A stretch of 64,000 bases of DNA, from NCBI GenBank assembly GCA_003235475.1, contig QJWC01000031.1, positions 1,042 to 65,041 of the forward strand, given 5' to 3'. The position numbers and the translations under genes were made by a program. This document shows positions 25,366 through 43,415 of the stretch, one piece after another (the stretch's first letter is position 1; the number at the start of each line of letters is the position of its first letter). The DNA is from Acidimicrobiia bacterium (GTDB taxonomy: Bacteria; Actinomycetota; Acidimicrobiia; Spongiisociales; UBA5794). The notes beneath the pieces were generated by a model. It was not told the DNA's origin, ran no database searches, and saw only the letters and a program-made list of their open reading frames with translations.

Positions 25366-25451
25366 GCTCGTGCACTCCTTGTTCGGTCAATGTGTCACAC
25401 TATACGATCTGACACGGGTGTGCAGCCATACTGAACAACGCGAGAGGGCGC

Positions 25452-26660: not shown

Positions 26661-26692
26661 TCCTCTCACGAATTGTGTAGTGTCACTGATCA

Positions 26693-27583: not shown

Positions 27584-28479
27584 TGGCGCACATCGTCAAA
27601 CCGAAGGCCCAGCTTGCCTTCACCGTGCCAACTGAGTTCCACGGTCGTTCGACGGGCTACACGCTCGACCGGATCGTCAACGAGGAGGACGGCGCGGTTC
27701 AGATGGGATTCTGCATCGCCCACCTCGAGCCAGGCGGCTTCGTCGACACGCACGTCCACTCCTATGAGGAGTCGATCTACGTGATGGAGGGAACGCTGAC
27801 GCTCGACACGCCCGAGGAGAGCGTGCTCCTGGTCGAAGGGGACTACGCCCTGATCCCTGTCGGCATGACCCACGCCCTCCGCAACACCTCCGGAGCCATC
27901 GTCGAGTTCGCCGAGATGAAGGCCCCGCTCCCGAGGGCCCGGTTCGGCTATGACACACAGTTTCCTCCCGCGATGACGGTCGGCGCTGCCGCACCGATCG
28001 ACGTACGAGACCCCAGGAACCGCTACTTCGGACACATCGACGCCGCATCGATGGATCCCACCCTCCAGACACAGGACCGGCTCGCGGTGAGCGCGAGCAT
28101 GCGGACGGCCCTCCTCGTCTACAGCGGTATCACCGTGAAGATGATGGTCGACTCCGACCTCGGCGCCGACCTCTCGACGATGTTCATGGTCCAGTACGAA
28201 CAGGGCGGGTACGCCGGCGCCCACGACCATCCCCTCGAAGAGACCTACCTCATCCTCGACGGGCAGGTCGAGGCGAAGTTCGACGGAGAGAGCTTCGTCC
28301 TCGGCCCTGGGGACACGGCATGGGCAGGCGTCGGGTGCGTCCACGAGTTCCGCAACGTCGGCGACGGGTTCGTTCGTTGGCTCGAAACGCAGGCACCCGC
28401 ACCCCCGCCCCGGCATTCGTACCGATTCGCCCGTGACTGGGCCTACCTCGAAAACGCCCTGGCAGAACAACAGCAGTGA
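27583..28479 (+). CDS. Bicupin protein
   Basis: Two cupin modules: GGFVDTHVHSYEESIYVMEGTL...GDYALIPVGMTHALRN and GGYAGAHDHPLEETYLILDGQV...GDTAWAGVGCVHEFRN. The ATG shares its A with the preceding TGA. Confidence 0.75.
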   Translation: MAHIVKPKAQLAFTVPTEFHGRSTGYTLDRIVNEEDGAVQMGFCIAHLEPGGFVDTHVHSYEESIYVMEGTLTLDTPEESVLLVEGDYALIPVGMTHALRNTSGAIVEFAEMKAPLPRARFGYDTQFPPAMTVGAAAPIDVRDPRNRYFGHIDAASMDPTLQTQDRLAVSASMRTALLVYSGITVKMMVDSDLGADLSTMFMVQYEQGGYAGAHDHPLEETYLILDGQVEAKFDGESFVLGPGDTAWAGVGCVHEFRNVGDGFVRWLETQAPAPPPRHSYRFARDWAYLENALAEQQQ

Positions 28480-28501
28480 GAGAACCGACAAGGAGCACCC
28501 C

Positions 28502-29755
28502 ATGGCCGACTTTCCCGTAGCGACAACTCCCAGTCCAGGCGTGATGGGCGTCGATTGGGAAAACCGTGTCGACTTCGAACGCCTCCGCCAGTACCGAATC
28601 GCACGTGTCCGTCAGATGCTCGACGAACACGACCTCGGCGCGGTCCTTCTGTTCGAGACGTCCAACATCCGATACGCGACCGCGACCCAGATCGGGTACT
28701 GGGCGTTCAACAAGGGTGAGCGGTGGGCGCTGGTCACTCGCGAGGGTCGCCCGAAGGTGTGGGACTTCGGTTCAGCGGCCAAGGCGCACCGTCTCCAACT
28801 CCCCCACATGTACGACGCGGAGAACTCCGTCGGCGGCAACACCGGGCTCCAGGGCGCCATCGGCCCTGAGACAGGGCTTCACGCGCGGGCGGTGCGCGAG
28901 ATCAAGGGAGCCCTCGAGGACGCGGGGGTCGCCGACCAGAAATTGGGCGTCGACCTTGCGGAAACCGCAGTCTTCCTCGCCCTGCAGGGTGCGGGCCTCA
29001 ACGTCGTCGACGGCCAGCAGGCGATGATGCGGGCGAGAGAGATCAAGAACCCGGACGAGATCACGCTCCTCACGCAGGCCTGCGCCATGGTCGACGGCGT
29101 GTACCAGCACATCTTCGAGGCGCTGAAGCCCGGCATCCGGGAATCCGATGTCGTCGGCATGGCCCACGCTCGCCTCTTCGAGATGGGCTCGGAGTTCGTC
29201 GAGGCGATCAACTCGATCGCAGGTGAGCGGTGCAGCCCCCACCCGCATGTCTTCAGCGATCGCCTCATCCGGCCGGGCGACCAGGCGTACTTCGACATCA
29301 TCCACGTCTTCAACGGGTATCGAACCTGTTACTACCGGACATTCGCGGTCGGCCGTGCATCGCAGGCACACCACGATGCGTTCAAGAAGTCGAGGGAGTG
29401 GATGGACGCGGCGATCGATCTCGTCAAACCGGGAACCACGACTGACCAGATCGCGCTCGCATGGCCGAAGGCTGAGGAATTCGGCTTCGAGGACGAGATG
29501 GATGCGTTCGGGCTCCAGTTCGGCCACGGCGTGGGCGTCGGCCTGCACGAGCGGCCCATCATCAGCAGGCTGAACTCGCTGGACAACCCGGTGGAGATCG
29601 AGGAGGGCATGGTCTTCGCCCTCGAAACGTATGCGCCTGCGTCCGATGGGCGTTCGGCGGCGCGGATCGAGGAGGAAGTCGTCGTCACCGCCGACGGCTG
29701 CAAGGTGATCACCCTGTTCCCATGTGAGGAGTTGATGGTCGCGAATGCCTACTGA
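28502..29755 (+). CDS. M24-family (creatinase/prolidase fold) hydrolase with creatinase-like N-domain
   Basis: ATG at 28502 after AAGGAG. N-domain: LGAVLLFETSNIRYATA. Pita-bread domain: AYFDIIHVFNGYRTCYYRTF, GHGVGVGLHERP, VFALETY, ARIEEEVVVT. Confidence 0.8.
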   Translation: MADFPVATTPSPGVMGVDWENRVDFERLRQYRIARVRQMLDEHDLGAVLLFETSNIRYATATQIGYWAFNKGERWALVTREGRPKVWDFGSAAKAHRLQLPHMYDAENSVGGNTGLQGAIGPETGLHARAVREIKGALEDAGVADQKLGVDLAETAVFLALQGAGLNVVDGQQAMMRAREIKNPDEITLLTQACAMVDGVYQHIFEALKPGIRESDVVGMAHARLFEMGSEFVEAINSIAGERCSPHPHVFSDRLIRPGDQAYFDIIHVFNGYRTCYYRTFAVGRASQAHHDAFKKSREWMDAAIDLVKPGTTTDQIALAWPKAEEFGFEDEMDAFGLQFGHGVGVGLHERPIISRLNSLDNPVEIEEGMVFALETYAPASDGRSAARIEEEVVVTADGCKVITLFPCEELMVANAY

Positions 29756-30806
29756 TCCCGCGTACGACTACGCGCTGCGCCCGCCGCGGCTTCCGGATCC
29801 CGAGGACCGGTCCCTCGACGACGCGCCGATCGATCAGGAGACGCGCCTCGCGCTGTACCGCAAACTCCAGGAGCTGCGCCAGTGGAGCAAGCGTGCCCAC
29901 GACTTGTTCCTCCAGAACCTCGTGAAGGGTACGACCCACCTCTCGTTGGGCATGGAGGCGATCGCCACGGGATTCGGCATGGCCCTGAAACCGGGCGACT
30001 ACACGTTCGCCACGTACCGCGGTCACGCCCATTCGCTCGCGAGGGGCATGGATCCCGGAAAAGCCCTCGCGGAGCTTCTCGGCCGGGAGAACGGCGTGCT
30101 CGGCGGCAAGGGCGGTTCGATGCACCTGACCGACGTCGAGAAGGGGATGATGGGCTCGTACGCCATCATCGGCGCGCACCTGTGCATCGCAAACGGCGCC
30201 GCATGGTCGGCAAAGATGAGGGGCACGGACCAGGTTGCTGTCGCGTTCTTCGGCGACGGAACCACCAACATCGGAGCGTTCCATGAAGCCCTCAACATGG
30301 CGGTCATCTGGAAGCTGCCGGTCGTGTTCGTGTGCGAGAACAACCTCTACATGGAGTACACGCCGATCGATGCGATCACTGCGGTCCCAAATCCCGCAGC
30401 GGACCGTGCTGGTGCGTACGGCCTGGATCCGATCATCATCGACGGGAATGACCCGGATGCCGTGTACCTCGCCGCCGTCGACGCGCTCGAGCGTGCCAGG
30501 CGGGGCGACGGCCCTTCGCTCATCGAGGCCGTCACCTACAGAACCGGGGGCCACTCGAGGGCAGACCCGGCCAAGTACCGCCCCGAGGCGGAGGTCGAGG
30601 CGTGGAAGGACCGCGACCCCGTTCCCGTGTACCACCAGCGTCTCCTCCGGATCGGTGTTCCCGAGGCTGAGCTCGGTGACATCACCCGTGAGGTGGCCGC
30701 GACGATCGACGCGGCAACGGAATTCGCAAAGGCTGGCGCGCATCCGGGCGAGGAGACGTTGATGACCGAGGTCTGGGCTGACGGAGGTTCGGCATGGCGG
30801 AACTGA
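29745..30806 (+). CDS. Thiamine-diphosphate-dependent 2-oxoacid/acetoin dehydrogenase E1 component, alpha subunit
   Basis: YRGHAHSLARG, and the ThDP motif FFGDGTTNIGAFHEALNMA...VCENNLY. 11-nt overlap with the upstream gene. Confidence 0.88.
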   Translation: MPTDPAYDYALRPPRLPDPEDRSLDDAPIDQETRLALYRKLQELRQWSKRAHDLFLQNLVKGTTHLSLGMEAIATGFGMALKPGDYTFATYRGHAHSLARGMDPGKALAELLGRENGVLGGKGGSMHLTDVEKGMMGSYAIIGAHLCIANGAAWSAKMRGTDQVAVAFFGDGTTNIGAFHEALNMAVIWKLPVVFVCENNLYMEYTPIDAITAVPNPAADRAGAYGLDPIIIDGNDPDAVYLAAVDALERARRGDGPSLIEAVTYRTGGHSRADPAKYRPEAEVEAWKDRDPVPVYHQRLLRIGVPEAELGDITREVAATIDAATEFAKAGAHPGEETLMTEVWADGGSAWRN

Positions 30807-31783
30807 GCTACCGCGATGCGGTCGCCTACGGGATCGCCCAGGAGATGCGCCGCGACCCAGCCCTCGTGATGCTCGGTGAGGACATCGCGGCGGCTGGCGG
30901 CGTTTTCAAGACGACCGTCGGCCTTGTCGAGGAGTTCGGCCCTGATCGCGTCCGCGACACGCCGATCTCAGAGCAGGCGATCCTCGGGGCCGCGATGGGC
31001 GCCGCGATGACGGGCATACCAGTGATCGCCGAGATCATGTTCTCCGACTTCCTCGCCGTGTGCTGGGACATGATCGCCAACGAGATCGCAAAGAGCCGGT
31101 ACATGACCAACGGGCAGGTGAGCTTCCCCCTCGTGATCCGCACGGCGAACGGCGGGGGTGCCCGCTTCGGAGCCCAGCACTCGCAGAGCGTGGAGAACTG
31201 GGCAATGATGATCCCCGGACTCAAGGTGGTCGCCCCATCGACGCCCGAGGACGTCGTCGGCCTCATGGCTGCGTCGATACGCGATCCCGACCCCGTCATC
31301 TTCTTCGAGCACAAGTCGCTCATGGCTGGCAAGGCCGAGGTCCCCGACGGTGAGATCGTCGACGAACTCGGTACAGCCCGAGTCGTCCGAGAGGGTTCCG
31401 ACGTCACCATCGCCGCGTTGGCGCTGATGGTGCCCCGCGCACTCGAAGCAGCTGACCGCCTCGCGGAGAACGGCATCTCAGCCGAGGTCATCGACGTGCG
31501 GTCGCTGGTTCCCCTCGACACGGCGACCCTGCTTTCATCCACGGCGAAGACCGGGAGGTTCTTCACGGTCGAGGAGAACCCGCGCTTGTGCGGATGGGGT
31601 GCAGAGCTCGTGTCGATCATCAGCGAAGAGGCGTTCTGGAACCTCGATGGCCCATGTGTGCGCATCACGACGCCACACATCCCGCTCCCATCCGCGGCCT
31701 CCCTCGAGGACCTCGCCCTTCCGTCCGTCGATCGCATCGTCGAGACCGTGACACGGTCCGTCGATGGTGGAGGAAGCGCATGA
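30794..31783 (+). CDS. 2-oxoacid/acetoin dehydrogenase E1 component, beta subunit
   Basis: LSYRDAVAYGIAQEMRRDPALVMLGEDI...DTPISEQAILGAAMGAAMTG...FPLVIRTANGGGARFGAQHSQS. 13-nt overlap with the alpha gene. Confidence 0.9.
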   Translation: MAELSYRDAVAYGIAQEMRRDPALVMLGEDIAAAGGVFKTTVGLVEEFGPDRVRDTPISEQAILGAAMGAAMTGIPVIAEIMFSDFLAVCWDMIANEIAKSRYMTNGQVSFPLVIRTANGGGARFGAQHSQSVENWAMMIPGLKVVAPSTPEDVVGLMAASIRDPDPVIFFEHKSLMAGKAEVPDGEIVDELGTARVVREGSDVTIAALALMVPRALEAADRLAENGISAEVIDVRSLVPLDTATLLSSTAKTGRFFTVEENPRLCGWGAELVSIISEEAFWNLDGPCVRITTPHIPLPSAASLEDLALPSVDRIVETVTRSVDGGGSA

Positions 31784-33039
31784 CCGACTTCCTGCTGAAG
31801 GGCGCGACCGTTCTCACTCTCGGCGCCCGCACTCAGAACCACGTCGAGGCCGATGTGCTCGTCGAGCGCGGCTCCGTGTCCGAGGTTGGATCCGGGCTCC
31901 GATCCCGCGCCGCCGAGGCCATCGATGCTTCGAACACGATCGTGATGCCCGGTTTCGTCGACAGCCACCGGCGCTGCTGGACCTCCCTCTTCAAGAACGA
32001 GGGGAGTGTGCCGACCGCTGCCACTCCCGGTCCGCAGGACGTCTACGCAGGGACGCTCGCAGCACTCCTCGGCGCTGCCGAGGCGGGAGTCACGACCGTC
32101 GCCGACTGGTACGACGGGCCCCCCGCGCCCGGACACGTCGAGGGCGTGCTCCGCGCGCATGCCGAGGCGGGCATCCGTACCGTCCTGGTGCTCGCGCCCG
32201 CGGAACATGCCGAGTCCGTTTGGCGGAGGGCCGTGCAGCGCCATGGCGTCGCGCCAACGGAGCTCACGACACTCGCCGCGGGCGTCCACTCGGCCGCCGC
32301 GTTGTCTGACGCACGGCGCGCGGCCAACGAGCTCGGCCTCCGTCTCCATGTGAAGGGGACGGCCCGCGATGCCGGAATGTTCGCTGCGGCGAAGGGGGAC
32401 CTCGATCCGGGCGTCACGGTGATCCACGCAGCCGGCCTGGCGGACGATGATCTCGACGCGATCGCGGACTCAGGGGCAGGGGTCGCGCTCACGCCGGTCG
32501 CCGACATGACGACCGGGCCCGGCTCGCCGCCGATGCAGACCTTCCTCGACCGGGACATCCGCCCCGGGCTCGGCGTCGGCCATGAGCTCCAGGGACCCGG
32601 CGACATACTCGCGCAGATCAGGGCTGCGATATCGATACAGCACGCCACCTACTTCGACCTCAAGCTGGCTGGAAAGGGAGGGCTCCCGAACCTTCTCACC
32701 ACGCGCCACGTGATCCGCTACGGAACGAGCGACGGCGCAAACGCGCTCGGACTCGGTGGCACCACAGGGTCCATCGAGGCCGGGAAGCAAGCAGACCTGA
32801 TCATGCTCCGGACCGATACACCGAACCTCTATCCCGTCAACGACCCGATCGGTGCCGTCGTGTGGGGGGTTGACACGTCGAACCTCGACCTGGTTCTCGT
32901 CGGCGGCCGACCAGTAGTGAGGGCCGGTGTGACGCAAGCGGATGTCGCAGAAGTCAGGTCCCTGGTCGCGGAGGCTCGTGCTCGCCTCGGCCTGCCCTCG
33001 CCGATCCTTGCTGGCGCCGCGCCGGGAGGTGCATTGTGA
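31780..33039 (+). CDS. Amidohydrolase-superfamily protein (cytosine-deaminase/TRZ-ATZ-like), apparently catalytically degenerate paralog
   Basis: ATG at 31780 in an ATGA overlap with the E1-beta stop. Clear paralog of the C-terminal domain of the 37113 gene (VMPGFVDSHRRCW versus VMPGFVDTHRHIW). The HxH reads HRR and the strand-8 Asp position reads GVGHE versus SVDVE. Confidence 0.8.
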   Translation: MTDFLLKGATVLTLGARTQNHVEADVLVERGSVSEVGSGLRSRAAEAIDASNTIVMPGFVDSHRRCWTSLFKNEGSVPTAATPGPQDVYAGTLAALLGAAEAGVTTVADWYDGPPAPGHVEGVLRAHAEAGIRTVLVLAPAEHAESVWRRAVQRHGVAPTELTTLAAGVHSAAALSDARRAANELGLRLHVKGTARDAGMFAAAKGDLDPGVTVIHAAGLADDDLDAIADSGAGVALTPVADMTTGPGSPPMQTFLDRDIRPGLGVGHELQGPGDILAQIRAAISIQHATYFDLKLAGKGGLPNLLTTRHVIRYGTSDGANALGLGGTTGSIEAGKQADLIMLRTDTPNLYPVNDPIGAVVWGVDTSNLDLVLVGGRPVVRAGVTQADVAEVRSLVAEARARLGLPSPILAGAAPGGAL

Positions 33040-34085
33040 CAACCCCGCGCCAACAGCCATCGTCGGCCCTCACATCGCTCGTCGTTGGCTCCAGGTTCGT
33101 TCCGGTCTACATCGCACTGGCGCTGCTCGTCGTCGTGGCGTGGATCTGGGCCCCTCAGGCGCTGTCGAGCATCTCGCTGAGAGCCATCGCCCCGTACGGA
33201 GCCGTGCTCGGCATCGCAGCACTCGGCCAGATGATCGTCATCATGATCGGCGGTATCGACCTGAGCGTTCCCGGCACGATGAGCCTCGCCGCGGTGATCA
33301 TGATCGGCGTCGGCCACGGCGCCGACGAGAACATCGGTAAGGCGATGGTGATCGCATTCGCGGCGGCTGCGGTGGTCGGCCTCGCGAACGGCTTGCTCAT
33401 CGGCGGATTGAAGCTCAACCCCCTCATCGTCACCCTCGCAGCCGGATCCATCGTCACCGGAGTCGTGTTCCGGTACGCGGAGAAGATCACCGTCCAGAAC
33501 CCCGTTCCGGAGGGGTTGACCGATTGGGTCGCCAAGAGGTACTTCGGATTAGGTGCGGTCTTCTGGATCGGGATCGCCGTCACGGTGATCGTGAGCGTGA
33601 TTCTCCGGTACACAGTTGCAGGTCGCCGATTCCAGGCAATCGGCGCGAATCCGGTGGCTGCGAACGTCGTCGGCGTCAGGGTGAACTGGTACCAGATCAT
33701 GGCGTACGTGTTCGCGGCGCTCCTATACGCAGCCGCGGCGATCGCCCTCGCAGGCCTCCTGAGGCGACCGGGCGCCTCGGTCGGCAACGAGTACCTGCTC
33801 GCGCCCATCGCGGCCGTCGTGATCGGAGGCGCATCCCTCACGGGCGGACTGGCAAGCCCGTTCTCGACCTTCACGGCGGGCCTCTTCCTCATCGGCCTTC
33901 GCCAGATGATGCTCACGATGGGCCTGCCGACGGCGCTCCAGAACGTGGCGTTCGGGCTCGTCATCATCGCCGGGATGCTCGTGTCCGGCGACCGGATCAC
34001 CAAGGGCGTGGAGCAGCTCCTCCGGGAGCGAAGACGTCCAACCCGAACTGAGGTGGAAGAGATATTGACCCCGATGAACCAATGA
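33036..34085 (+). CDS. ABC transporter permease, CUT2 (ribose/sugar-like) type
   Basis: GTG in a GTGA overlap. 349 aa, polytopic, with the GQMIVIMIGGIDLSVPG motif typical of RbsC/branched-type permeases. Confidence 0.85.
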   Translation: MTTPRQQPSSALTSLVVGSRFVPVYIALALLVVVAWIWAPQALSSISLRAIAPYGAVLGIAALGQMIVIMIGGIDLSVPGTMSLAAVIMIGVGHGADENIGKAMVIAFAAAAVVGLANGLLIGGLKLNPLIVTLAAGSIVTGVVFRYAEKITVQNPVPEGLTDWVAKRYFGLGAVFWIGIAVTVIVSVILRYTVAGRRFQAIGANPVAANVVGVRVNWYQIMAYVFAALLYAAAAIALAGLLRRPGASVGNEYLLAPIAAVVIGGASLTGGLASPFSTFTAGLFLIGLRQMMLTMGLPTALQNVAFGLVIIAGMLVSGDRITKGVEQLLRERRRPTRTEVEEILTPMNQ

Positions 34086-34162
34086 GGCGAGGACAACGCG
34101 CCTCTCAGACTCCGGCACCCCCACCGGGAGCCGACAAGCGAAGGAAGCGGATGGGAGCACCC

Positions 34163-35518
34163 ATGAAACAGATACGACTACTTGCCGTGTTTGCCGTGTT
34201 TGCGCTGATCGTCGCCGCGTGCGGCAGCAGCGACGGCGGAGACACGACAACAACGAGTGGAGACACCACTACGACAACGGCGGCGACGACAACGACCGCG
34301 GGCCCCGGCGGCGATGAGAACCCGCTCGCCATGTATGGCGAGCGTATCGACGCAGACCCGGCGCTCGTCGAGAAGGCACTGGGTCCGGTCGAGCCCTCTG
34401 ACGACGCAAGCTGGAACATCATCCTTGCTGCGATCGCCAGGGCCGATCAGAACCCGGACCAGGCGACGATCGACAAGGCGCTCGAGTGCTTCAACAACCA
34501 GGAGTGCGACACCGGCTCTGGCGGGGCGGGCGTCATGGGGTATGCCGATGGCGGTGGTGATCAGGTCAACGTCTGGCGTGCGGTCAGCCACATGGAGGCG
34601 ATCCTCCAGGCGCTGACGTACTCGGAGATCGGCAAGATCATCTCGACGGCGGCGAACTTCGACCCGGATCCAAGCGTTGCCGCGAACGACATTCGGTTCC
34701 TCATCAACAGCGGCGTCGACTTCATCGTCGGCTACCCGGACGCTGGCATCGCGATCGCCGATGCGATCAAGGAAGCGGACGACGCGGGCATCCCGTACGT
34801 CTCGTTCTCGGCCGGCTATGTCGGTCTGCCTGATCAGGACGGCGCACTCGTCCCCGGAGAGGACTACCTCACCGTGGTCGGTGAGAACCTGTGTGCGCTC
34901 GGCGAGAGCTTCGCTCAGGTCCTGAACGATGGCGTTGGTACCGGTGAGGTCGCGGTTCTCGGTGGCTCATCGGGCAACGCACTGTCACTTGGCTGGCAGC
35001 GGTGCATCTTCCCGGCATTGAGCGAGGGCATCACAGCAGTGAATGCCCCGCCGAACGCCGACACCACCGTGGGCGACACCTTCTGGTATGACCCGCTCAT
35101 TCCTGACGTGTTCCGGGGTCTCTTGACCACGAATCCGGGCATCAAGGGCTGGGCATACGAATACTCGGATGGAATGAACACCGGGCTGAGCGTGTACGAG
35201 GAACTCGGCATCCCAGTCGCGAATCTCACGGTTGCCTTGCGTACCGACGAGCAGACACTGTTCTGTGACTGGGTGGATCGCAACGAACCGACGTACAACA
35301 TCTTCTACTCGGCTGGTGGCAACTTCCAGTCGCGTGTCGCGGTAACAGCGGCGATGTTGGGACTTCAGGAACCGAGCGTGGTGCCGGCCGAGGTCGTCGT
35401 GCCACACGTGATGCGACCGGTGACGGCTGCAGATTGCAATCCGGACCGCGTGAACCCGTACGTCTCGGGAACGTCGCTGGTGCCGGATGCGGTGCTTGCG
35501 CTGATGTTCGCCGGCTGA
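34163..35518 (+). CDS. Substrate-binding lipoprotein (periplasmic-binding-protein type I fold), unusually long
   Basis: MKQIRLLAVFAVFALIVAAC lipobox, then a Thr-rich linker (DTTTTSGDTTTTTAATTTTAG). An alternative ATG lies at 34151. Confidence 0.75.
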   Translation: MKQIRLLAVFAVFALIVAACGSSDGGDTTTTSGDTTTTTAATTTTAGPGGDENPLAMYGERIDADPALVEKALGPVEPSDDASWNIILAAIARADQNPDQATIDKALECFNNQECDTGSGGAGVMGYADGGGDQVNVWRAVSHMEAILQALTYSEIGKIISTAANFDPDPSVAANDIRFLINSGVDFIVGYPDAGIAIADAIKEADDAGIPYVSFSAGYVGLPDQDGALVPGEDYLTVVGENLCALGESFAQVLNDGVGTGEVAVLGGSSGNALSLGWQRCIFPALSEGITAVNAPPNADTTVGDTFWYDPLIPDVFRGLLTTNPGIKGWAYEYSDGMNTGLSVYEELGIPVANLTVALRTDEQTLFCDWVDRNEPTYNIFYSAGGNFQSRVAVTAAMLGLQEPSVVPAEVVVPHVMRPVTAADCNPDRVNPYVSGTSLVPDAVLALMFAG

Positions 35519-35547
35519 TCCGACAAGGGCATCCCGAGGAAGCGTCG

Positions 35548-37116
35548 ATGAAAGAGGAATTGGTTCTCGAGCTGAGCGGCGTATCACGCCAGTTCGGTGC
35601 GGTGCGGGCGTTGACCAACGTCAGCTTCGAATGCCGAGCTGGCGAGATCCACGCTCTCGTCGGCGAGAACGGCTCCGGCAAGTCGACGCTCCTCGGGATC
35701 GCCAGTGGCTTCGTGGACCCCGATCTGGGCACCGTCCGGATCGGGGGCCACAAGCTCCGTACGGACTCCCCTGCCCTGGCGCGCAAGCTCGGCCTTGCGA
35801 TGGCGTATCAGGAGACATCCCTCGTCCTGGCGGAGCCCGTGAAGAACAACCTGTTCCTCGCAACTCCGCCCGAGATGCGCCCGCCCTACTGGCGCCGCAA
35901 GAAGTGGGCACGGAGGCAACTCGCGGAGTTCGACCTCGACCTCGAGCTGTTTCCCGACGCCCCGGCCGGGTTCTTGACGTTCGCAGACCGCCAGCTCTTC
36001 GAGGTGGCCAAGGCGCTGGCGACCAACCCGAAGGTCCTGCTCCTCGACGAACCGACGACGGCGCTCGGGCCCGACGAGGTGGAGGCCCTCCACCGCACGA
36101 TCAAGCAATGTGCCACGCAGGGCATCGGAGTCGTCTACGTGAGCCACCGCCTGCCCGAGGTCCTCGAGATCGCCGATCGCATCACCGTATTGCGCGATGG
36201 CGAGTATCAGGGCACCTTCGATGCCCACAAGACGAGCGAGGAACAGCTCGTCGAACTGATCGTCGGGCGGCCGTTCGATTCTGCATTCCCACATCGAGCC
36301 GCCACCACAACCGAGCCGGAGGACGTCCTGGTCGTAGAGGGTCTCCAGGGTGAGGCGTTCGGGCCCGTTTCGTTCACCTTGCTGTCGGGGGAGGTGGTCG
36401 GCCTTGCTGGCGCTGAGGGCAACGGACAAGCAGCGTTGCTCGACACACTCGCGGGCCGTACACCGCCGAAGGCTGGCCGCGTCGAATGTGTCGGCAAGGA
36501 TCTCGCCCTCATTTCCACGCACGAGGCAGTCGCCGCAGGCATCCAGCTCCTCCCTGGCGATCGGAAACACCAAGCCCTCATGGGGGTCCTCGGCGTGCGT
36601 GTGAATGCCACGATCCAATCACTCAACAAGTTCAGCGTCTCGGGGATCCTGCGGCGACGGTCCGAGCGAAAGGGCGTCCGATCCCTCGTTGAACAGCTCG
36701 AGATCCGCACCCCCTCGCTCGAGCAACCCGTTGAGTTCCTGTCCGGCGGGAACGCCCAGAAGGTCTCCGTATCGCGCACGTTCCTCAGGGAACCTGCGGT
36801 GATCCTTGCTTTCGAACCAACGCAAGGAGTTGACGTCGGCTCACGTTTCGACATCTACAAGGCACTCCGAACCCGCATCGACGAGGGTGCCGCCATGCTC
36901 GTGAAGTCGAGCGATCCGATCGAGCTCGCTGGCCTATGCGACAGGGTGCTCGTGATGTCCCGTGGCCAGATCGTGGAGGAAATCCCCGGGGAGGAGCTGA
37001 CCGAGCTCCGAATCGTGGAATCGATCGTCCGCGGCCCTGGGATGTCAAAGGCGGCCCGGTCGCCCCTCGGCGTGGCGATGCCGACAGCCTCGTCGGCGGA
37101 AGGGACCGAGTCGTGA
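35548..37116 (+). CDS. Sugar-type ABC transporter ATP-binding protein with two nucleotide-binding domains
   Basis: ATG at 35548 after GAGGAAG. GENGSGKSTL, LLLDEPTTAL; second NBD LSGGNAQKV, LAFEPTQGVDV. Confidence 0.9.
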   Translation: MKEELVLELSGVSRQFGAVRALTNVSFECRAGEIHALVGENGSGKSTLLGIASGFVDPDLGTVRIGGHKLRTDSPALARKLGLAMAYQETSLVLAEPVKNNLFLATPPEMRPPYWRRKKWARRQLAEFDLDLELFPDAPAGFLTFADRQLFEVAKALATNPKVLLLDEPTTALGPDEVEALHRTIKQCATQGIGVVYVSHRLPEVLEIADRITVLRDGEYQGTFDAHKTSEEQLVELIVGRPFDSAFPHRAATTTEPEDVLVVEGLQGEAFGPVSFTLLSGEVVGLAGAEGNGQAALLDTLAGRTPPKAGRVECVGKDLALISTHEAVAAGIQLLPGDRKHQALMGVLGVRVNATIQSLNKFSVSGILRRRSERKGVRSLVEQLEIRTPSLEQPVEFLSGGNAQKVSVSRTFLREPAVILAFEPTQGVDVGSRFDIYKALRTRIDEGAAMLVKSSDPIELAGLCDRVLVMSRGQIVEEIPGEELTELRIVESIVRGPGMSKAARSPLGVAMPTASSAEGTES

Positions 37117-39566
37117 CGGCCCGGACCGATGCCGCTCGCATCCTGGCGCGCAAGATCATGCGCAATGCGCGTGACAAGAACAAATGGCGCAAGGTCGTCA
37201 AGTTCAGGCTGTGGATGCCCATTGTCCTCCAGGTCCTTCTGGTTGCGATCGTGCTCGCCTACACCGAGTACCGCTTCCCGGGTTTCATCAGCGCCAACAC
37301 CGAGCAGACGCTTCTGCTGGCACTCCCCCTGATCATCGTCACCGCAGCCCAGACGAACGCCATCCTCGTCGGGTACCTCGACCTGTCCGTTGGGGCCGTG
37401 GTCAGCCTGAGCGTTGTCACTGCGTCCTTCCTCATCGGATCGGACGCCTCAGGATTCGACATCGCGATCGGCATCGTGGCGATCATCGGCGCGGGGCTCG
37501 CGGTCGGTGCCGTGAATGCCGCGCTCATCCGCGGCGTGAAGATCCCCTCGATCGTCGCAACCCTCGCAACGCTCAGCATCGTGAGCGGGATTGCCGCAAC
37601 GATGCGACCCACCGCCCAGGGCGTCATCAACAAGGAGCTCGTGAGCTTCCTGCAGTCCAGCATCGGTCCGATCCCTGTCTTCTTCATCGTCGCACTGGTC
37701 GGGGCAGGCCTCGCGGACGCATGGCTGCACGGCACGGGGAGCGGACTCGAACTGCGTGCGACCGGTTTTGACGAACGGTCAGCGAAGCGGGGAGGCGTAC
37801 GGACGAATTGGGTCCGCGTGAGGGCGCTCCTGCTCTCGGCGGGCCTTGCCGCCGTTGGGGCCTTCTTCGTCATCGCGGCACAGTCATCTGTTGGAAACGC
37901 CCAGATCGGCTCCCCGTACGCGCTGCGGTCGATCACCGCTGCGGTCCTCGGTGGCGCGGCGATCGCGGGTGGACGGGCGACCTTCCTCGGTGGCTCTGTT
38001 GCCTCCGTCCTCCTCGCTCTGATTCTCACCGTCGTCCCCTACCTCGACTGGACCAAGGAAGACGGGGCGATGATCATCGGCATCCTCGTCATCCTTGGCA
38101 TCATCATCTTCCAGCTCGGCGACCTCAAAGAGCTGGCCAAGCGCAACTACAAGCGGGTTCGGCGCCTGATCGTTGGAAGTCGAGTAGAGAAAGCCGCTGA
38201 GATTCCGGACCTGTATGAGCCCGGCATCGACTTCAGCGTTGCGCCGTCCGGCCTGACCCTGATACGAGGCGGAACGGTGCTGAGCGTGGATCCGGCCGTC
38301 GGTGACCACGCCGTCGCCGATGTCCTCATCGACGGGGACACGATCCGCGAGGTGCGCCCGAACATCGAGGCAAACGGCGCACGGGTGATCGACGCCCATG
38401 GCATGATCGTCATGCCCGGGTTCGTCGACACCCACCGGCACATCTGGGAAGGCCTGCTCCGCAACATCGGGACCGATGTCCCTCTCGAAGGGCGCACGAG
38501 CTACATCTCGCACGTGTTGCACAAGCTCGCGCCGGCCTACAGCCCGGAGGATGCGTACGTCGGAAACCTCCTGTCGTGCGTGGGGGCCCTCGACGCGGGT
38601 GTCACGACATTGCTCGACTGGTCCCACATCCAGGGAAGCCCGGCGCACACCGATGCGGTCATCCACGCACTCCAGGATTCCGGCATGAGGGCCGTGTTCG
38701 CCTACGGATTCCCCTGGTGGGGCAAGTGGGAGGAGCGCCAACCGAGTTGGTTCGTCCGCGCCGCGACCGAGTACTTCTCGACCAAGGACCAGATGCTCAC
38801 TCTCGCCCTTGCTGCACCCGGCCCCGAGTTCACTGACTTCGAGGTGACGAGGGACCATTGGAAGCTGGCACGCGAGGCCGATGCACGGATCTCGACGCAT
38901 GTCGGCGTCGGCTCGTACGGACTCGACGCGAAGGTCCAGGAGTTCGGTGAGGCGGGCCTGCTCGGTGACGACACGACCTACATCCACTGCACGACGCTCA
39001 ACGACACGGAGATCCAGATGATCGTCGACTCCGGCGGAACCGTGTCCTTGGCCTCGCCGGTCGAGATGATGATGGGTCACGGCATGCCACCCATCCAGAA
39101 GTTCCTCGATCGGGGGCTGAGCCCCAGTTTGTCCGTCGACGTCGAGACGAACGTTCCGAACGACATGTTCAACCAGATGCGGTCTGCCATGGCGCTGCAG
39201 CACACGCTGGCGGAGCAGGGCGGAAGGGACAAGGTCAGCGCCTCGGATGTGATCGCATGGGCGACGATCGTCGGGGCGAAGGCGAACGGCCTCGACCACA
39301 AGACGGGATCGCTGACGCCCGGAAAGCAGGCGGACCTCGTCATGCTGCGGACCGACCGGATGAACGTGACCCCGCTCAACGATCCTGCGACCGCCGTCGT
39401 CCTCGGAATGGACACGGGGAACGTCGACACCGTGATGGTGGCAGGGCGCATCATGAAGAGCGGCGGCAGAATCACCGGCCTGCGGTGGTCCGCCCTGATG
39501 GAAGCCGCAGCCAATGCTCGCGATCGGGTCCTTGCGAGGTCCGGCTTCAAGCCCCCCAGGATCTAG
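37113..39566 (+). CDS. CUT2-type ABC permease fused in frame to a C-terminal amidohydrolase (cytosine-deaminase/TRZ-ATZ-like) domain
   Basis: GTG at 37113 in a GTGA overlap with the ATPase stop (alternative ATG at 37158). The permease part runs to about 38121 (AQTNAILVGYLDLSVGAV...GAMIIGILVILGIIIFQLG). A charged linker of about 44 aa follows (DLKELAKRNYKRVRRLIVGSRVEKAAEIPDLYEPG...). The amidohydrolase starts at about 38253 (LTLIRGGTVLSVDP...MPGFVDTHRHIW...ISTHVGVG...YIHCTTL...SLSVDVETN). There is no stop codon and no ATG/GTG with an RBS at the junction. Confidence 0.75.
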   Translation: MTARTDAARILARKIMRNARDKNKWRKVVKFRLWMPIVLQVLLVAIVLAYTEYRFPGFISANTEQTLLLALPLIIVTAAQTNAILVGYLDLSVGAVVSLSVVTASFLIGSDASGFDIAIGIVAIIGAGLAVGAVNAALIRGVKIPSIVATLATLSIVSGIAATMRPTAQGVINKELVSFLQSSIGPIPVFFIVALVGAGLADAWLHGTGSGLELRATGFDERSAKRGGVRTNWVRVRALLLSAGLAAVGAFFVIAAQSSVGNAQIGSPYALRSITAAVLGGAAIAGGRATFLGGSVASVLLALILTVVPYLDWTKEDGAMIIGILVILGIIIFQLGDLKELAKRNYKRVRRLIVGSRVEKAAEIPDLYEPGIDFSVAPSGLTLIRGGTVLSVDPAVGDHAVADVLIDGDTIREVRPNIEANGARVIDAHGMIVMPGFVDTHRHIWEGLLRNIGTDVPLEGRTSYISHVLHKLAPAYSPEDAYVGNLLSCVGALDAGVTTLLDWSHIQGSPAHTDAVIHALQDSGMRAVFAYGFPWWGKWEERQPSWFVRAATEYFSTKDQMLTLALAAPGPEFTDFEVTRDHWKLAREADARISTHVGVGSYGLDAKVQEFGEAGLLGDDTTYIHCTTLNDTEIQMIVDSGGTVSLASPVEMMMGHGMPPIQKFLDRGLSPSLSVDVETNVPNDMFNQMRSAMALQHTLAEQGGRDKVSASDVIAWATIVGAKANGLDHKTGSLTPGKQADLVMLRTDRMNVTPLNDPATAVVLGMDTGNVDTVMVAGRIMKSGGRITGLRWSALMEAAANARDRVLARSGFKPPRI

Positions 39567-41782: not shown

Positions 41783-41855
41783 GGGCCTGTAGCTCCAATG
41801 GCAGAGCAGCGGACTTTTAATCCGAAGTGTGTGGGTTCGAGTCCCACCGGGCCCA
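41783..41855 (+). tRNA. tRNA-Lys (anticodon UUU)
   Basis: GGGCCTG-TA-GCTC-CAATGGCA-GAGC-A-GCGGA-CTTTTAA-TCCGA-AGTGT-GTGGG-TTCGAGT-CCCAC-CGGGCCC-A. 73-nt cloverleaf folded by hand, with a GTTCGAGTC T-loop and no encoded CCA. TACAAT lies about 12 nt upstream. Confidence 0.9.
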
Positions 41856-41872
41856 CGCATCCAAGGTCGAGT

Positions 41873-43273
41873 TCAGACGAGTTCGAGAAGCGGCTCGTCC
41901 GCGAGGGATCGCAGTCGCTCGAGCCCTTCCTCGGCCACACCCGACAGCCGAGCGAGCGCCCTTCTGACTTCGGTCGAGTCTCGCTGCAACCGGTCGATGC
42001 GAGCGGGATTCAGAGCGCACTTGTTCGACCACTCTGCAATGTCGGGCTCGGCGCCGTAGCGCGCGGCGGCGACTGTTCCGCGGACCTGCATGCTTGCCCA
42101 GTTGCCCGGATTGTCGGGGAGGTTGTTCGGAGGGCACAACCGGTTGCGCTCGACGTCATCCTCTCGGGTCGCTTCCACGTAGCCGGCCAGCGCCGCGCAA
42201 AAGCATGGAAACCCTGCACGGATCGTCTGCACTCGGATCGTATCCGGGGACCAGATCGGCACCAGCGGTGGATATCGCAGTCCAGGGGCCGCACAATGCA
42301 CGATCAGGGAACCGGGCGCGAGCGGGACCGAGCCGTGTTCGAGTTGGATCTCGGTCTTCGTCACTCGGTTGATGTGACCCTTCCGAACCACGTTCTCCAC
42401 GGTTTGCAGGAGCCGAAGCTCCCACTCGCCGAGCGTCGGGGTCTTGGCCATGGTCGGAAGCACGCCGGAGTCGATTCGCAGCATCACCCCTGCGTCCTCC
42501 AGACGAAGGAAGAAGTCGTCCGGCGATCGAGCGGCTGCGGCGGCTGCCATCGTGTCAGCGGCAAGTCCGAGAGCCACCACCGGGTCCGGCTGAACGACAG
42601 CCCGGTTGAGCATCCACGGGTCGCGGGGGCGCACCCACGTGATCCGATCCACATCGACACCGTTGCCGACCAGCCACACGATTGCGTCCGTTGCCGTCTT
42701 TCCCGATCCGACGATCACGAACCGCTCGGGTGCGCCCGCCAGCCGCGCAAGTTCGTTCACGGCGACGACGGGCACCCCCTCGTCCACACCAAACGGCGGA
42801 GGTGTGGTCGCGGGGATGGCTGGCGAGAGGTAGGTGGCGTCGACGAGCCGTCGTCGCACATCGACGCGCACTGTCTCGCCGGACACGAGCGAAGTCACAA
42901 GGTTGGCCTGTCCGTCGCTGTGGTACTCGCTACCGCCGAGGAACGTCACACGGCCCGACGCGATGAACCGGCGGTGGAGGATGTCGTCGTAGTAGGCCTG
43001 GATCTCCGATCGACGCGCCCGCTCGTAGAGACCCGCCTCGGGGCCGTCCTTCTGGATCGATCCGTCACCCAGCACGGTGGACGCGACGCCGTAGAACAGC
43101 GAGGCCTGGTGGAGCTGCACGAACGGGTACGCATCCTCCCAGTGGCCGCCCGGCGCATGACGTCGGTCGACGAGTGTGACGTGCACGTCTGCGTGGTCGA
43201 TGAGCGAGTCGGTGAATGCCATACCCATGGCACCAGCACCCACAACGAGGTAGTCGGTGTCGATCGATCGCAT
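41873..43273 (-). CDS. FAD/NAD(P)-binding oxidoreductase (two-dinucleotide-binding-domain flavoprotein)
   Basis: Start at MRSIDTDYLVVGAGAMGMAF (ATG 43273). A second Rossmann motif, FVIVGSGKTATDA, is present. The specific subfamily is unclear to me. Confidence 0.7.
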   Translation of the reverse strand: MRSIDTDYLVVGAGAMGMAFTDSLIDHADVHVTLVDRRHAPGGHWEDAYPFVQLHQASLFYGVASTVLGDGSIQKDGPEAGLYERARRSEIQAYYDDILHRRFIASGRVTFLGGSEYHSDGQANLVTSLVSGETVRVDVRRRLVDATYLSPAIPATTPPPFGVDEGVPVVAVNELARLAGAPERFVIVGSGKTATDAIVWLVGNGVDVDRITWVRPRDPWMLNRAVVQPDPVVALGLAADTMAAAAAARSPDDFFLRLEDAGVMLRIDSGVLPTMAKTPTLGEWELRLLQTVENVVRKGHINRVTKTEIQLEHGSVPLAPGSLIVHCAAPGLRYPPLVPIWSPDTIRVQTIRAGFPCFCAALAGYVEATREDDVERNRLCPPNNLPDNPGNWASMQVRGTVAAARYGAEPDIAEWSNKCALNPARIDRLQRDSTEVRRALARLSGVAEEGLERLRSLADEPLLELV

Positions 43274-43415
43274 CACACGCACAATAGATGCCTTCCAAGT
43301 GGGTCCTCCTGGTGATCCCCAGTCCGGAGCCACGAGGTAGGGTGTGTCCACTCACTCGACGTGCGCCATGGGTATTGCGGCGCAGTCGGTGACCCGACGA
43401 TGCGAGGTCGCTCCG

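What the first reader, a model, noticed from the sequence alone, without database searches (positions are those of the whole stretch)
37113..39566. ABC importer permease fused in frame to a cytoplasmic amidohydrolase: a possible transport-coupled catabolic enzyme
Seen in sequence: one uninterrupted 817-codon frame.
- About 335 aa form a CUT2/RbsC-type polytopic permease.
- A charged linker of about 44 aa follows (DLKELAKRNYKRVRRLIVGSRVEKAAEIPDLYEPGIDFSVAPSG).
- A complete amidohydrolase domain of about 437 aa follows, with an intact metal/catalytic set (DTHRHIW, STHVG, YIHCT, SVDVE).
- No stop codon and no ATG/GTG with an RBS lies at the junction.

Established knowledge: RbsC-type permeases end in the cytoplasm, so the enzyme domain would sit at the inner mouth of the transporter. 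I do not know of a described ABC permease-amidohydrolase fusion.

Inference: the imported substrate is deaminated or hydrolysed as it emerges. This would give trapping or channelling, analogous in logic to group translocation.
Basis: partly seen in the sequence, partly recalled or inferred. Interest (0 to 1): 0.72.

Follow-up and report, generated by a model that had tools for sequence, protein, structure and literature searches.

The report
ABC importer permease fused to amidohydrolase
One membrane subunit of a sugar-type ABC uptake system in soil Acidimicrobiia carries a complete metal-dependent hydrolase on its cytoplasmic tail; the fusion is real and conserved in at least 80 species, but nothing yet shows that it does more than keep the enzyme beside the transporter.

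Summary
Window 37113-39566 (+) is one uninterrupted 817-codon gene. It encodes a 10-helix BPD_transp_2 (CUT2/RbsC-type) permease, a 43-residue linker and a full amidohydrolase domain (NCBIfam NF006056).

It is not an assembly artefact. All 80 species-representative Acidimicrobiia genomes that I fetched keep both parts in one frame with no stop, and the linker has no indels. Selection is purifying: dN/dS is 0.16 for the membrane domain, 0.10 and 0.37 for the two linker halves, and 0.11 for the enzyme.

The topology puts the enzyme in the cytoplasm. There are 10 helices, and K+R count 28 on predicted inside loops against 2 outside.

The fusion closes a conserved operon: amidohydrolase paralog, permease 1, lipoprotein binding protein, tandem ATPase, fusion. 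More distant homologous systems keep the amidohydrolase as a separate gene, and one of them fuses the ATPase to permease 2 instead.

The functional link between transporter and enzyme is therefore well supported. Channelling or "group translocation" is not tested. It is weakened by a low-confidence linker in the model and by the expectation that the ATPase covers the inner face of the permeases.

The enzyme keeps its HxH/His/His/Asp metal ligands but lacks the HxxE glutamate of characterised cog0402 deaminases. The substrate is unknown.

Verdict: a new variant of known kinds, of moderate interest.

The parts
37113..39566 (+). Fusion gene of 817 codons plus TAG stop: permease 2 of the ABC importer with a C-terminal amidohydrolase
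   Evidence: An identical protein (P0001) and more than 120 protein clusters at 71-100% identity share the same two Pfam domains. The frame is intact in 80 of 80 genomes.
37113..37211 (+). N-terminal cytoplasmic tail, aa 1-33, with 12 K/R
   Evidence: positive-inside count; helical in the models.
37212..38123 (+). Membrane domain, aa 34-337: 10 TM helices, with a cytoplasmic coupling-loop region at aa 208-230 between TM6 and TM7
   Evidence: Pfam BPD_transp_2; hydropathy; AlphaFold helices; fold matches to type II importer membrane domains PsaC, BhuU, HmuU, BtuC and FhuB; dN/dS 0.16.
38124..38186 (+). Proximal linker, aa 338-358 (LKELAKRNYKRVRRLIVGSRV): a basic helix that continues TM10. G336, D337 and R344 are shared with permease 1.
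   Evidence: no indels in 81 sequences; dN/dS 0.10.
38187..38252 (+). Distal linker, aa 359-380 (EKAAEIPDLYEPGIDFSVAPSG): non-helical, fixed in length, less conserved
   Evidence: conservation 0.66, gap fraction 0; dN/dS 0.37; coil in the models.
38253..39563 (+). Amidohydrolase domain, aa 381-817. Metal ligands: H441/H443 (38433-38441), H596 (38898-38900), H625 (38985-38987), D676 (39138-39140). V599 stands where cog0402 deaminases have the catalytic Glu.
   Evidence: Pfam; NF006056 at 494 bits against a cut-off of 391; PDB sequence matches; fold matches AtzA, TrzN and MTA/SAH deaminase, TM 0.81-0.87 on the target; residue counts; dN/dS 0.11.
35545..37116 (+). Tandem-domain ABC ATPase (RbsA/AraG-like). 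Its stop overlaps the fusion start. The start codon is chosen at MKEELV.
   Evidence: 75-87% identical and adjacent in all loci.
34082..35518 (+). Substrate-binding lipoprotein: a divergent Peripla_BP_4/CUT2 type with the lipobox IVAAC and a Thr-rich tether
   Evidence: 45.9 bits against 35.1; best PDB match 4ru1, a CUT2 binding protein, E 7e-4; synteny.
33036..34085 (+). Permease 1 (BPD_transp_2, 349 aa), the presumed partner of the fusion's membrane domain
   Evidence: 26% identical to permease 2; synteny.
31780..33039 (+). AH1, a free-standing paralog of the fused amidohydrolase (38% identity). In this genome it has HRR instead of HxH and GVGHE instead of SVDVE.
   Evidence: (NF006056 at 254 bits, below cut-off); always directly upstream of permease 1.
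27583..31783 (+). Co-conserved catabolic genes: bicupin (27583-28479), M24 DddP/creatinase-like hydrolase (28433-29755), thiamine-dependent E1 alpha (29745-30806) and E1 beta (30794-31783)
   Evidence: They are linked to the transporter in most loci, either upstream or downstream.
24032..27583 (.). Probable further members of the cluster: HTH_3-cupin (PuuR-like) regulator 24032-24829 (-), SDR 24667-25365 (-), L-2-hydroxyglutarate oxidase 25452-26660 (+), HIBADH-like dehydrogenase 26693-27583 (+)
   Evidence: The regulator, SDR, HIBADH and bicupin recur next to free-standing homologs of the amidohydrolase in L084 and L085.

Best explanation
The gene encodes one real polypeptide of about 87 kDa.

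Its N-terminal 10-helix domain is one of the two membrane subunits of a binding-protein-dependent CUT2-type ABC importer. The other components are permease 1, a tandem ATPase and a lipoprotein binding protein.

Its C-terminal domain is a cytoplasmic, metal-dependent amidohydrolase of the uncharacterised NF006056 (PRK08204) subfamily. The domain hangs from TM10 on a conserved linker of fixed length, 43 residues.

The importer takes up a still unknown polar, nitrogen-containing solute. The tethered enzyme hydrolyses a C-N bond of that solute, or of an early intermediate, close to where it enters the cell. The products then feed the co-encoded enzymes: AH1, the M24 hydrolase, the bicupin, the dehydrogenases and E1 alpha/beta.

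The fusion gives co-localisation and a fixed 1:1 ratio of enzyme to transporter. This amounts to metabolic trapping by proximity. It is not shown to be true channelling or obligatory coupling.

Shown: the architecture, its conservation, purifying selection, the predicted cytoplasmic location, and the genomic link between this enzyme subfamily and CUT2 importers.

Inferred: enzyme activity, that the enzyme acts on the imported compound, and any kinetic advantage.
For: - Architecture.
- Recurrence: more than 120 protein clusters at 71-100% identity all carry both domains. In the species-representative genomes, 372 stretches encode a relative; the best 80, which include complete long-read chromosomes, are all full length and all in frame with no stop.
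- At 50% clustering only one full-length fusion cluster appears among the best 150 representatives, so the listed fusions form one clade.
- Selection: the linker has no indels. dN/dS is 0.16 (membrane domain), 0.10 and 0.37 (linker halves) and 0.11 (enzyme).
- Metal ligands are conserved.
- Cytoplasmic C-terminus: 10 helices. Four helices follow the conserved basic loop at aa 208-230. K+R count 28 inside against 2 outside, with 9 K/R in the linker. The fold resembles the 10-TM type II importer subunits.
- Functional link: the order AH1, permease 1, binding protein, ATPase, fusion is kept in every locus with enough flank.
- Free-standing homologs of the enzyme lie next to CUT2 components and the same regulator and enzyme set.
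Against: - There is no experimental data of any kind, and the substrate is unknown. The binding protein's best PDB match has E 7e-4, and the permease scores far below every equivalog cut-off.
- The HxxE glutamate of characterised relatives is absent, so the chemistry may differ, or activity may depend on other residues.
- The model shows no confident contact between the domains.
- Homologous pathways manage with a separate enzyme.
- In a related operon a different pair of neighbouring genes is fused (ATPase plus permease 2). Fusions in these overlapping-gene operons may therefore arise easily, without a special mechanistic meaning.
- Seven of the eight free-standing homologs inspected, chosen for their long N-terminal extensions, carry Tat-like signal peptides. 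The subfamily is therefore not tied to the cytoplasm.
Confidence: 0.6

Rival explanations
1. Neutral "Rosetta-stone" fusion. Two neighbouring genes of one operon became joined by loss of a stop, and the join was kept because it does no harm. The enzyme works exactly as the free enzyme does in related systems, with no gain from being tethered.
For: - The genes of this operon overlap by 4 nt, and a related operon has fused a different pair, ATPase plus permease 2.
- Homologous systems have a separate enzyme.
- The fusion is confined to one clade at 69% identity or more.
- The model shows no confident docking.
Against: - No intact split form was seen in 80 of 80 diverged species genomes.
- The linker has no length variation, and its proximal half is as constrained as the enzyme itself.
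- Part of that constraint may only reflect the C-terminal helix that permease 1 also has.
Confidence: 0.25
2. Regulatory or gating domain. The amidohydrolase fold senses the cytoplasmic substrate or product and controls the transporter. This would resemble the trans-inhibition domains of MetNI or ModBC, or would make transport depend on catalytic turnover.
For: - There is one enzyme domain per transporter.
- The proximal linker helix is conserved and continues TM10.
- The missing HxxE glutamate could point to binding rather than catalysis.
Against: - All five metal ligands and long stretches around them are at least 90% conserved, and dN/dS is 0.11. This matches a working enzyme.
- Free-standing family members have the same H-V/I-G-V-G motif, so loss of the Glu is a trait of the family and not a consequence of the fusion.
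- Known trans-inhibition domains sit on the ATPase subunit, not on the permease (established knowledge).
Confidence: 0.08
3. The enzyme domain lies outside the cell, anchored by the permease, and converts an external precursor into the compound that is transported. This would parallel binding domains fused to permeases in Gram-positive bacteria.
For: - Seven of the eight free-standing homologs inspected (those with long N-terminal extensions) have Tat-like signal peptides, so part of the subfamily works outside the cytoplasm.
- Acidimicrobiia are taken to be single-membrane cells (background knowledge, not tested here) and would have to anchor exported enzymes.
Against: - An even number (10) of helices with a strongly basic N-terminus, and 9 K/R in the 43 residues after TM10 (K+R 28 against 2).
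- Four helices follow the coupling loop, which must face the ATPase.
- The fold resembles 10-TM importer subunits whose termini are both cytoplasmic (plus established knowledge for BtuC).
- Homologs that are exported use Tat, which implies folding in the cytoplasm. A C-terminal domain behind ten helices has no such route.
Confidence: 0.04
4. Assembly or sequencing artefact that removed a stop between two genes.
For: A few database proteins look split, namely P0122, P0123, P0129 and P0162.
Against: - Those proteins contain stretches that look frameshifted, so they appear to be the erroneous ones.
- The frame is intact in 80 of 80 genomes from short-read and long-read assemblies of many samples.
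- An identical protein is held by two sources, NCBI and JGI/IMG.
Confidence: 0.01

Closest known systems
CUT2-family ABC importers (TC 3.A.1.2), such as RbsABC, AraFGH, LsrACDB and YtfQRT-YjfF
   Same: - A BPD_transp_2 permease with about 10 helices.
- Two different permease genes.
- A single ATPase with two ABC domains.
- A Peripla_BP_4-type binding protein.
- The same kind of operon.
   Different: - No characterised member carries an enzyme on a permease, as far as I know, and the paper library gave nothing.
- Scores against AraH, LsrC, YjfF and RbsC are 51-79 bits against cut-offs of 363-398.
- The binding protein is very divergent, so the substrate need not be a sugar.
cog0402-type amidohydrolases: atrazine chlorohydrolase AtzA (4v1x), triazine hydrolase TrzN (3ls9), MTA/SAH deaminase (4f0r), isocytosine and 8-oxoguanine deaminases
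   Same: - The same fold, a (beta/alpha)8 barrel with a beta-sandwich. TM-score is 0.81-0.87 on the target.
- Sequence E-values of 3e-28 to 1e-19 for the AtzA, MTA/SAH-deaminase and TrzN group.
- The HxH, His, His and Asp metal ligands.
   Different: - Only 19-25% identity.
- The HxxE catalytic glutamate is replaced by valine.
- The domain belongs to NCBIfam NF006056, which NCBI names "hypothetical protein".
- It is fused to a membrane protein.
Free-standing NF006056-type amidohydrolases in homologous gene clusters (P0125 in L081, P0128 in L084, P0131 in L085)
   Same: - 44-55% identical over the whole domain.
- The same H-V/I-G-V-G motif in P0125, P0128 and P0144.
- The same neighbours: the HTH-cupin regulator, SDR, HIBADH, bicupin and CUT2 transporter genes.
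   Different: - They are separate genes.
- Some carry Tat-like signal peptides.
- In L085 the ATPase is fused to permease 2 instead.
Other natural transporter-enzyme fusions and couplings, from my own knowledge and not tested here: SulP anion transporters fused to carbonic anhydrase, the phosphotransferase system (group translocation), ABC exporters with an N-terminal C39 peptidase, and binding domains fused to ABC importer permeases (OpuA, GlnPQ)
   Same: The logic is the same: a catalytic or accessory domain is put on a transporter subunit so that transport and the next step happen at the same place.
   Different: - These are different transporter classes and different enzymes.
- In the phosphotransferase system the chemistry is obligatorily coupled to translocation, for which there is no evidence here.
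- The C39 peptidase acts before export.
- Fused binding domains lie outside the cell and are not enzymes.

Membership tests
CUT2-type ABC importer permease (Pfam BPD_transp_2; RbsC/AraH-like) | Match to the BPD_transp_2 profile above the gathering score | tested here: met
   59.7 bits against 26.8, aa 64-328, covering profile positions 3-267 of 269.
CUT2-type ABC importer permease (Pfam BPD_transp_2; RbsC/AraH-like) | About 10 transmembrane helices with both termini in the cytoplasm | tested here: met
   This is a prediction only. Both AlphaFold models show 10 helices; hydropathy agrees; K+R count 28 inside against 2 outside; the best fold matches are 10-TM type II importer subunits. No experimental topology exists.
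CUT2-type ABC importer permease (Pfam BPD_transp_2; RbsC/AraH-like) | Encoded with a tandem-domain ATPase, a second permease and a Peripla_BP_4-type binding protein | tested here: met
   The ATPase scores 380 bits against AraG, which is below the equivalog cut-off. The order is conserved in the orthologous loci.
CUT2-type ABC importer permease (Pfam BPD_transp_2; RbsC/AraH-like) | Equivalence to a characterised permease (AraH, LsrC, YjfF, RbsC) | tested here: not met
   79, 77, 68 and 51 bits against cut-offs of 378, 388, 363 and 398. It belongs to the broad family but not to any characterised transporter.
CUT2-type ABC importer permease (Pfam BPD_transp_2; RbsC/AraH-like) | ATP-driven uptake of a defined substrate | not testable with these tools
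   This needs transport assays. The ligand of the binding protein is unknown.
Amidohydrolase superfamily, cog0402 group, NCBIfam NF006056 (PRK08204) subfamily | Full-length match to Amidohydro_1 and to NF006056 above their cut-offs | tested here: met
   Amidohydro_1 at 133 bits against 25, covering profile positions 1-344 of 345. NF006056 at 494 bits against 391.
Amidohydrolase superfamily, cog0402 group, NCBIfam NF006056 (PRK08204) subfamily | Metal ligands: HxH after strand 1, His after strand 5, His after strand 6, Asp after strand 8 | tested here: met
   H441, H443, H596, H625 and D676 are unchanged in all 12 fused domains compared and lie in columns at least 90% conserved in alignment A1. 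The assignment to strands is by alignment to 4f0r.
Amidohydrolase superfamily, cog0402 group, NCBIfam NF006056 (PRK08204) subfamily | The HxxE glutamate that acts as proton shuttle in characterised cog0402 deaminases and dechlorinases | tested here: not met
   V599 aligns with the Glu of H-I-H-E in 4f0r. V599 is unchanged in the fused domains compared and in the free homologs P0125, P0128 and P0144. It should therefore not be filed as a deaminase of the characterised type.
Amidohydrolase superfamily, cog0402 group, NCBIfam NF006056 (PRK08204) subfamily | The fold: a (beta/alpha)8 barrel with an N/C-terminal beta-sandwich | tested here: met
   Foldseek: AtzA, TrzN, 4f0r and 3hpa, TM 0.81-0.87 on the target, E 5e-24 to 3e-20. 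Most 10-residue blocks of the domain have mean pLDDT 70-96; several surface stretches are lower (48-69).
Amidohydrolase superfamily, cog0402 group, NCBIfam NF006056 (PRK08204) subfamily | Hydrolytic activity on a defined substrate | not testable with these tools
   No member of NF006056 is characterised as far as I could find. A search for "PRK08204" found no paper.
Group translocation or channelling systems (chemistry obligatorily coupled to transport) | The substrate is modified during or immediately upon translocation and does not mix with the cytoplasmic pool | not testable with these tools
   This needs isotope-dilution or transient-time experiments. The model gives no confident contact between the domains.

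The most novel reading that the evidence does not exclude
The tethered amidohydrolase is an integral working part of the transporter. It docks next to the ATPase, possibly paired with the co-encoded paralog AH1 in place of the usual homodimer. In this reading either it receives the substrate directly from the inward-facing permease, or its catalytic state gates the ATPase cycle. That would be an ABC-importer form of group translocation.
Probability: 0.1. Interest if true: 0.8.

Novelty: new variant of a known kind. Interest (0 to 1): 0.5.

Why it matters
Whether uptake systems and the first catabolic enzyme form physical units ("transport metabolons") is an old question, and it is hard to test with loosely associated proteins.

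Here nature supplies a covalent case that has stayed stable in evolution, in an ABC importer:
- The stoichiometry is fixed.
- The linker has a conserved length.
- Homologous split systems exist as natural controls.

If the fused and split forms differ in uptake kinetics or in leakage of intermediates, that would measure directly what proximity buys.

The fusion also links an uncharacterised amidohydrolase subfamily (NF006056) to a transporter and a conserved set of about ten catabolic genes. These occur in abundant, uncultured soil and freshwater Acidimicrobiia, so the cluster is a handle for finding the subfamily's substrate.

If the fusion turns out to be neutral, it remains a useful "Rosetta-stone" annotation clue and nothing more.

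Tried and rejected
- **Artefact.** Rejected. The frame is intact in 80 of 80 genomes. The proteins that looked split appear to be frameshifted reads of the same gene.
- **Split orthologs.** None seen above about 55% identity. At 50% clustering the only full-length fusion representative among the best 150 is P0121, and the other full-length hits are free amidohydrolases.
- **PDB by sequence for the permease.** No match with the single sequence. The profile of alignment A2 gave only a chance hit to a designed protein, E 0.47.
- **Fold search with the full-length model.** The enzyme domain dominated. A permease-only model was needed to see the weak similarity to type II importer subunits.
- **Substrate.** The PDB and family searches with the binding protein, the M24 hydrolase, the bicupin, the dehydrogenases and the oxidase gave no coherent known pathway. 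I considered purine/allantoin, creatinine, ectoine and DMSP catabolism. None fits the full gene set, so I leave the substrate open.
- **AH1 as a conserved pseudo-enzyme partner.** Rejected as a general statement. AH1 has lost ligands in this genome and four relatives, but 50 of 56 orthologs keep HxH.
- **Literature.** Six searches found no description of this fusion or of PRK08204/NF006056. The library is incomplete, so this is only absence of evidence.
- **Docking of the enzyme domain on the transporter.** Could not be assessed. The tool returns no inter-domain error map and does not model complexes.

Full report
**1. The observation**

The window has an open frame at 36936..39566 on the + strand. 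Translation from the GTG at 37113 gives 817 codons and a TAG stop, with no interruption. The GTG overlaps the TGA of the upstream gene (GTGA) and follows a GGAAGGGA stretch.

Pfam finds two domains:
- BPD_transp_2 at aa 64-328 (E 3e-16, above the gathering score).
- A complete Amidohydro_1 at aa 432-780 (E 2e-38, profile positions 1-344 of 345).

The linker codons 337-380 hold no ATG, GTG or TTG.

- Characterised enzymes of this group have an HxxE motif after strand 5. In the alignment to the MTA/SAH deaminase 4f0r, the glutamate falls on V599 (H596-V-G-V). The valine is unchanged in the fused domains compared and is also present in the free-standing homologs P0125, P0128 and P0144.
- Just past the linker there is an in-frame GTG at 38277 (V389) with GAGG 7 nt upstream. 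It lies inside the conserved fold and comes from the Arg-Gly-Gly codons, so I regard it as incidental.

**2. The fusion is real and conserved**

A search of 5.8 billion proteins returned an identical protein and more than 120 clusters of 803-823 aa at 71-100% identity. All cover 98-100% of the query and all carry both Pfam domains. They come from NCBI, JGI, ENA and Logan assemblies, and where named they are labelled Acidimicrobiia.

A scan of one genome per species found 372 stretches that encode a relative. The best 80 are full length and 69-83% identical. All are Acidimicrobiia or Actinomycetota MAGs from soil, groundwater and sediment. They include complete long-read chromosomes OY970227.1, OY969934.1 and OY970200.1.

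In all 80, the permease and amidohydrolase parts are in the same frame with no stop between them.

In the library clustered at 50% identity, the only full-length fusion among the best 150 representatives is one cluster, P0121 at 71%. The remaining hits are either fragments or free-standing amidohydrolases of 420-540 aa, the closest at 55% identity. Four of the short proteins were inspected (P0122, P0123, P0129, P0162), and all four contain stretches that look frameshifted.

As far as these lists show, the fusion therefore arose once, in one clade, and has not been seen to come apart since.

**3. Selection**

In an alignment of 81 sequences the linker (aa 338-380) has no indel. Its conservation is 0.83 over aa 341-360 and 0.66 over aa 361-380, against about 0.8 for the membrane domain and 0.9 for the enzyme.

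Nei-Gojobori estimates over 720 pairs at 80-95% identity give the following dN/dS values:

| Region | dN/dS |
|---|---|
| Membrane domain | 0.16 |
| Linker aa 338-358 | 0.10 |
| Linker aa 359-380 | 0.37 |
| Enzyme domain | 0.11 |

The proximal linker is a basic helix that continues TM10 in both AlphaFold models. Its start (G336, D337, R344) is shared with permease 1. Part of its constraint therefore belongs to the permease family and not to the fusion.

**4. Which side of the membrane**

Hydropathy and both models give ten helices.

The conserved basic loop at aa 208-230, between helices 6 and 7, is in the position of the loop that contacts the ATPase. It is followed by four helices, so the C-terminus is on the same side as that loop.

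Lysine plus arginine count 28 in the loops predicted inside and 2 outside. The linker alone has 9.

The permease-only model (pLDDT 76.7, pTM 0.75) finds as its best PDB matches the membrane subunits of type II ABC importers: PsaC, BhuU, HmuU, BtuC and FhuB. TM-scores are 0.44-0.57, probability is about 1, and E-values run from 3e-3 to 0.14. The match is weak but consistent. These subunits have ten helices with both ends in the cytoplasm (established knowledge for BtuC).

No solved structure of the BPD_transp_2 family was found by sequence.

One observation argues for caution. Of eight free-standing homologs inspected because of their long N-terminal extensions, seven carry Tat-like signal peptides. 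Part of this subfamily therefore works outside the cytoplasm.

**5. The surroundings**

The fusion is the last gene of a run of translationally coupled genes on the + strand:

| Coordinates | Gene |
|---|---|
| 31780-33039 | Paralogous amidohydrolase AH1 |
| 33036-34085 | Permease 1 |
| 34082-35518 | Lipoprotein binding protein of a divergent Peripla_BP_4 type |
| about 35545-37116 | Tandem ABC ATPase |
| 37113-39566 | The fusion |

Upstream lie E1 beta and alpha of a thiamine-dependent dehydrogenase, an M24 hydrolase closest to DddP, creatinase and ectoine hydrolase, a bicupin, a HIBADH-like dehydrogenase and an L-2-hydroxyglutarate oxidase. A divergent HTH-cupin regulator and an SDR are on the other strand.

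The order AH1, permease 1, binding protein, ATPase, fusion is kept in every fetched locus with enough flank. The M24, E1 and bicupin genes are linked to it, either upstream or downstream.

**6. Split relatives**

- The closest free-standing enzyme, P0125 (55%), lies two genes from a Peripla_BP_4 binding protein and a tandem ABC ATPase.
- P0131 (44%) lies beside a homologous regulator (45%), permease 1 (38%), a binding protein, and an 831-aa protein in which the ATPase (46%) is fused to permease 2 (37.5%).
- P0128 (48%) lies with homologs of the HIBADH (46%), bicupin (47%), SDR (56%) and regulator (47%).

The pathway and its link to a CUT2 importer are therefore older than the fusion. The pathway does not need the fusion. 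Neighbouring genes of this operon type have fused in more than one way.

**7. The enzyme**

The domain matches NCBIfam NF006056 (PRK08204, named "hypothetical protein") at 494 bits against a cut-off of 391. The nearest solved structures are atrazine chlorohydrolase AtzA, MTA/SAH deaminases, triazine hydrolase TrzN and isocytosine/8-oxoguanine deaminases. Identity is 19-25%, and the TM-score on the target is 0.81-0.87.

The metal ligands are conserved. The missing glutamate means that the name "deaminase" cannot simply be carried over. I found no paper on this subfamily.

**8. How it most likely works**

The binding protein delivers an unknown polar nitrogen compound to a heterodimer formed by permease 1 and the membrane domain of the fusion. 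The tandem ATPase drives uptake. The tethered enzyme hydrolyses a C-N bond of the incoming compound, or of an early intermediate, near the membrane. The co-encoded enzymes carry on from there.

What the fusion certainly provides is co-localisation and one enzyme per transporter.

Whether it provides more is open:
- The full-length model has no confident arrangement of the two domains. The linker has pLDDT below 50 and pTM is 0.57.
- In known ABC importers the ATPase dimer covers the inner face of the membrane domains (established knowledge). The enzyme is therefore more likely to sit beside the exit than at it.
- Relatives with a separate enzyme exist.

I put 0.6 on proximity-assisted catabolism, 0.25 on a neutral fusion, 0.08 on a regulatory role, 0.04 on an outside location and 0.01 on an artefact.

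**9. Comparison and novelty**

Both parts belong to known families. The membership tests show that the permease is a CUT2-type family member without being any characterised transporter. The enzyme is a member of NF006056 but fails one defining feature of the characterised cog0402 deaminases.

I know of no described ABC importer permease fused to a catabolic enzyme, and six searches of the paper library found none. The protein is already in public databases as "amidohydrolase family protein" or under a double COG name.

The nearest analogies come from my own knowledge: SulP-carbonic anhydrase fusions, the phosphotransferase system, peptidase-containing ABC exporters, and binding domains fused to permeases.

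I rate it a new variant of known kinds, with interest 0.5. The architecture is solid and unusual, and it makes the transport-metabolon question testable. The attractive mechanism is so far only an inference.

Noticed in passing
window 31780-33039 (+): AH1, the free-standing paralog of the fused amidohydrolase, has lost metal ligands in this genome: VDSHRRCW instead of HxH, and GVGHE instead of SVDVE. In 50 of 56 orthologs HxH is intact. AH1 also evolves much faster than the fused domain (44-67% against 74-87% identity to the window). It may be turning into a non-catalytic partner in this lineage.
   Followed up: partly
L085 1391-3886 (-), record JAXDJA010000323.1: In a homologous but unfused system, the tandem ABC ATPase and permease 2 form one 831-aa protein (ABC_tran x2 plus BPD_transp_2). 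The amidohydrolase there is a separate, divergently transcribed gene. The same operon type has therefore fused a different pair of neighbours.
   Followed up: partly
proteins P0128, P0130, P0135, P0144, P0165, P0171, P0173 (free-standing homologs): Seven of the eight free-standing homologs inspected, chosen for their N-terminal extensions of 40-70 residues, carry twin-arginine (Tat)-like signal peptides. Part of the NF006056 amidohydrolase subfamily appears to be exported.
   Followed up: partly
window 38266-38279 (+): There is an in-frame GTG (V389) with GAGG 7 nt upstream, 8 residues inside the amidohydrolase fold. In principle it could give a free, slightly truncated enzyme by internal initiation. 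It is more likely a by-product of the Arg-Gly-Gly codons.
   Followed up: no
window 25452-26660 (+): This gene is an equivalog-level match to L-2-hydroxyglutarate oxidase (518 bits against a cut-off of 299). It stands at the head of the same-strand gene run that ends with the fusion. Its relation to the pathway is unclear.
   Followed up: no
window 39624-41728 (+): Directly downstream of the fusion lies a membrane-anchored protein of about 700 aa. It has a gluzincin-like HELSH...WINEGLAEAY motif, an N-terminal hydrophobic segment and a C-terminal hydrophobic anchor. It has no Pfam match at E 0.001.
   Followed up: no
window 41783-41856 (+): A tRNA-Lys (anticodon TTT) gene. The long ORF listed at 41798..43315 (+) starts inside it and is probably spurious, because it lies opposite the FAD/NAD-binding gene at 41873-43351 (-).
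   Followed up: no
L059 10001-13425: The match to the fusion spans 3.4 kb instead of 2.45 kb, and the upstream transporter genes are broken into pieces. This suggests an insertion or an assembly problem upstream of or within the N-terminal part in that genome. The frame from permease to amidohydrolase is still intact there.
   Followed up: no
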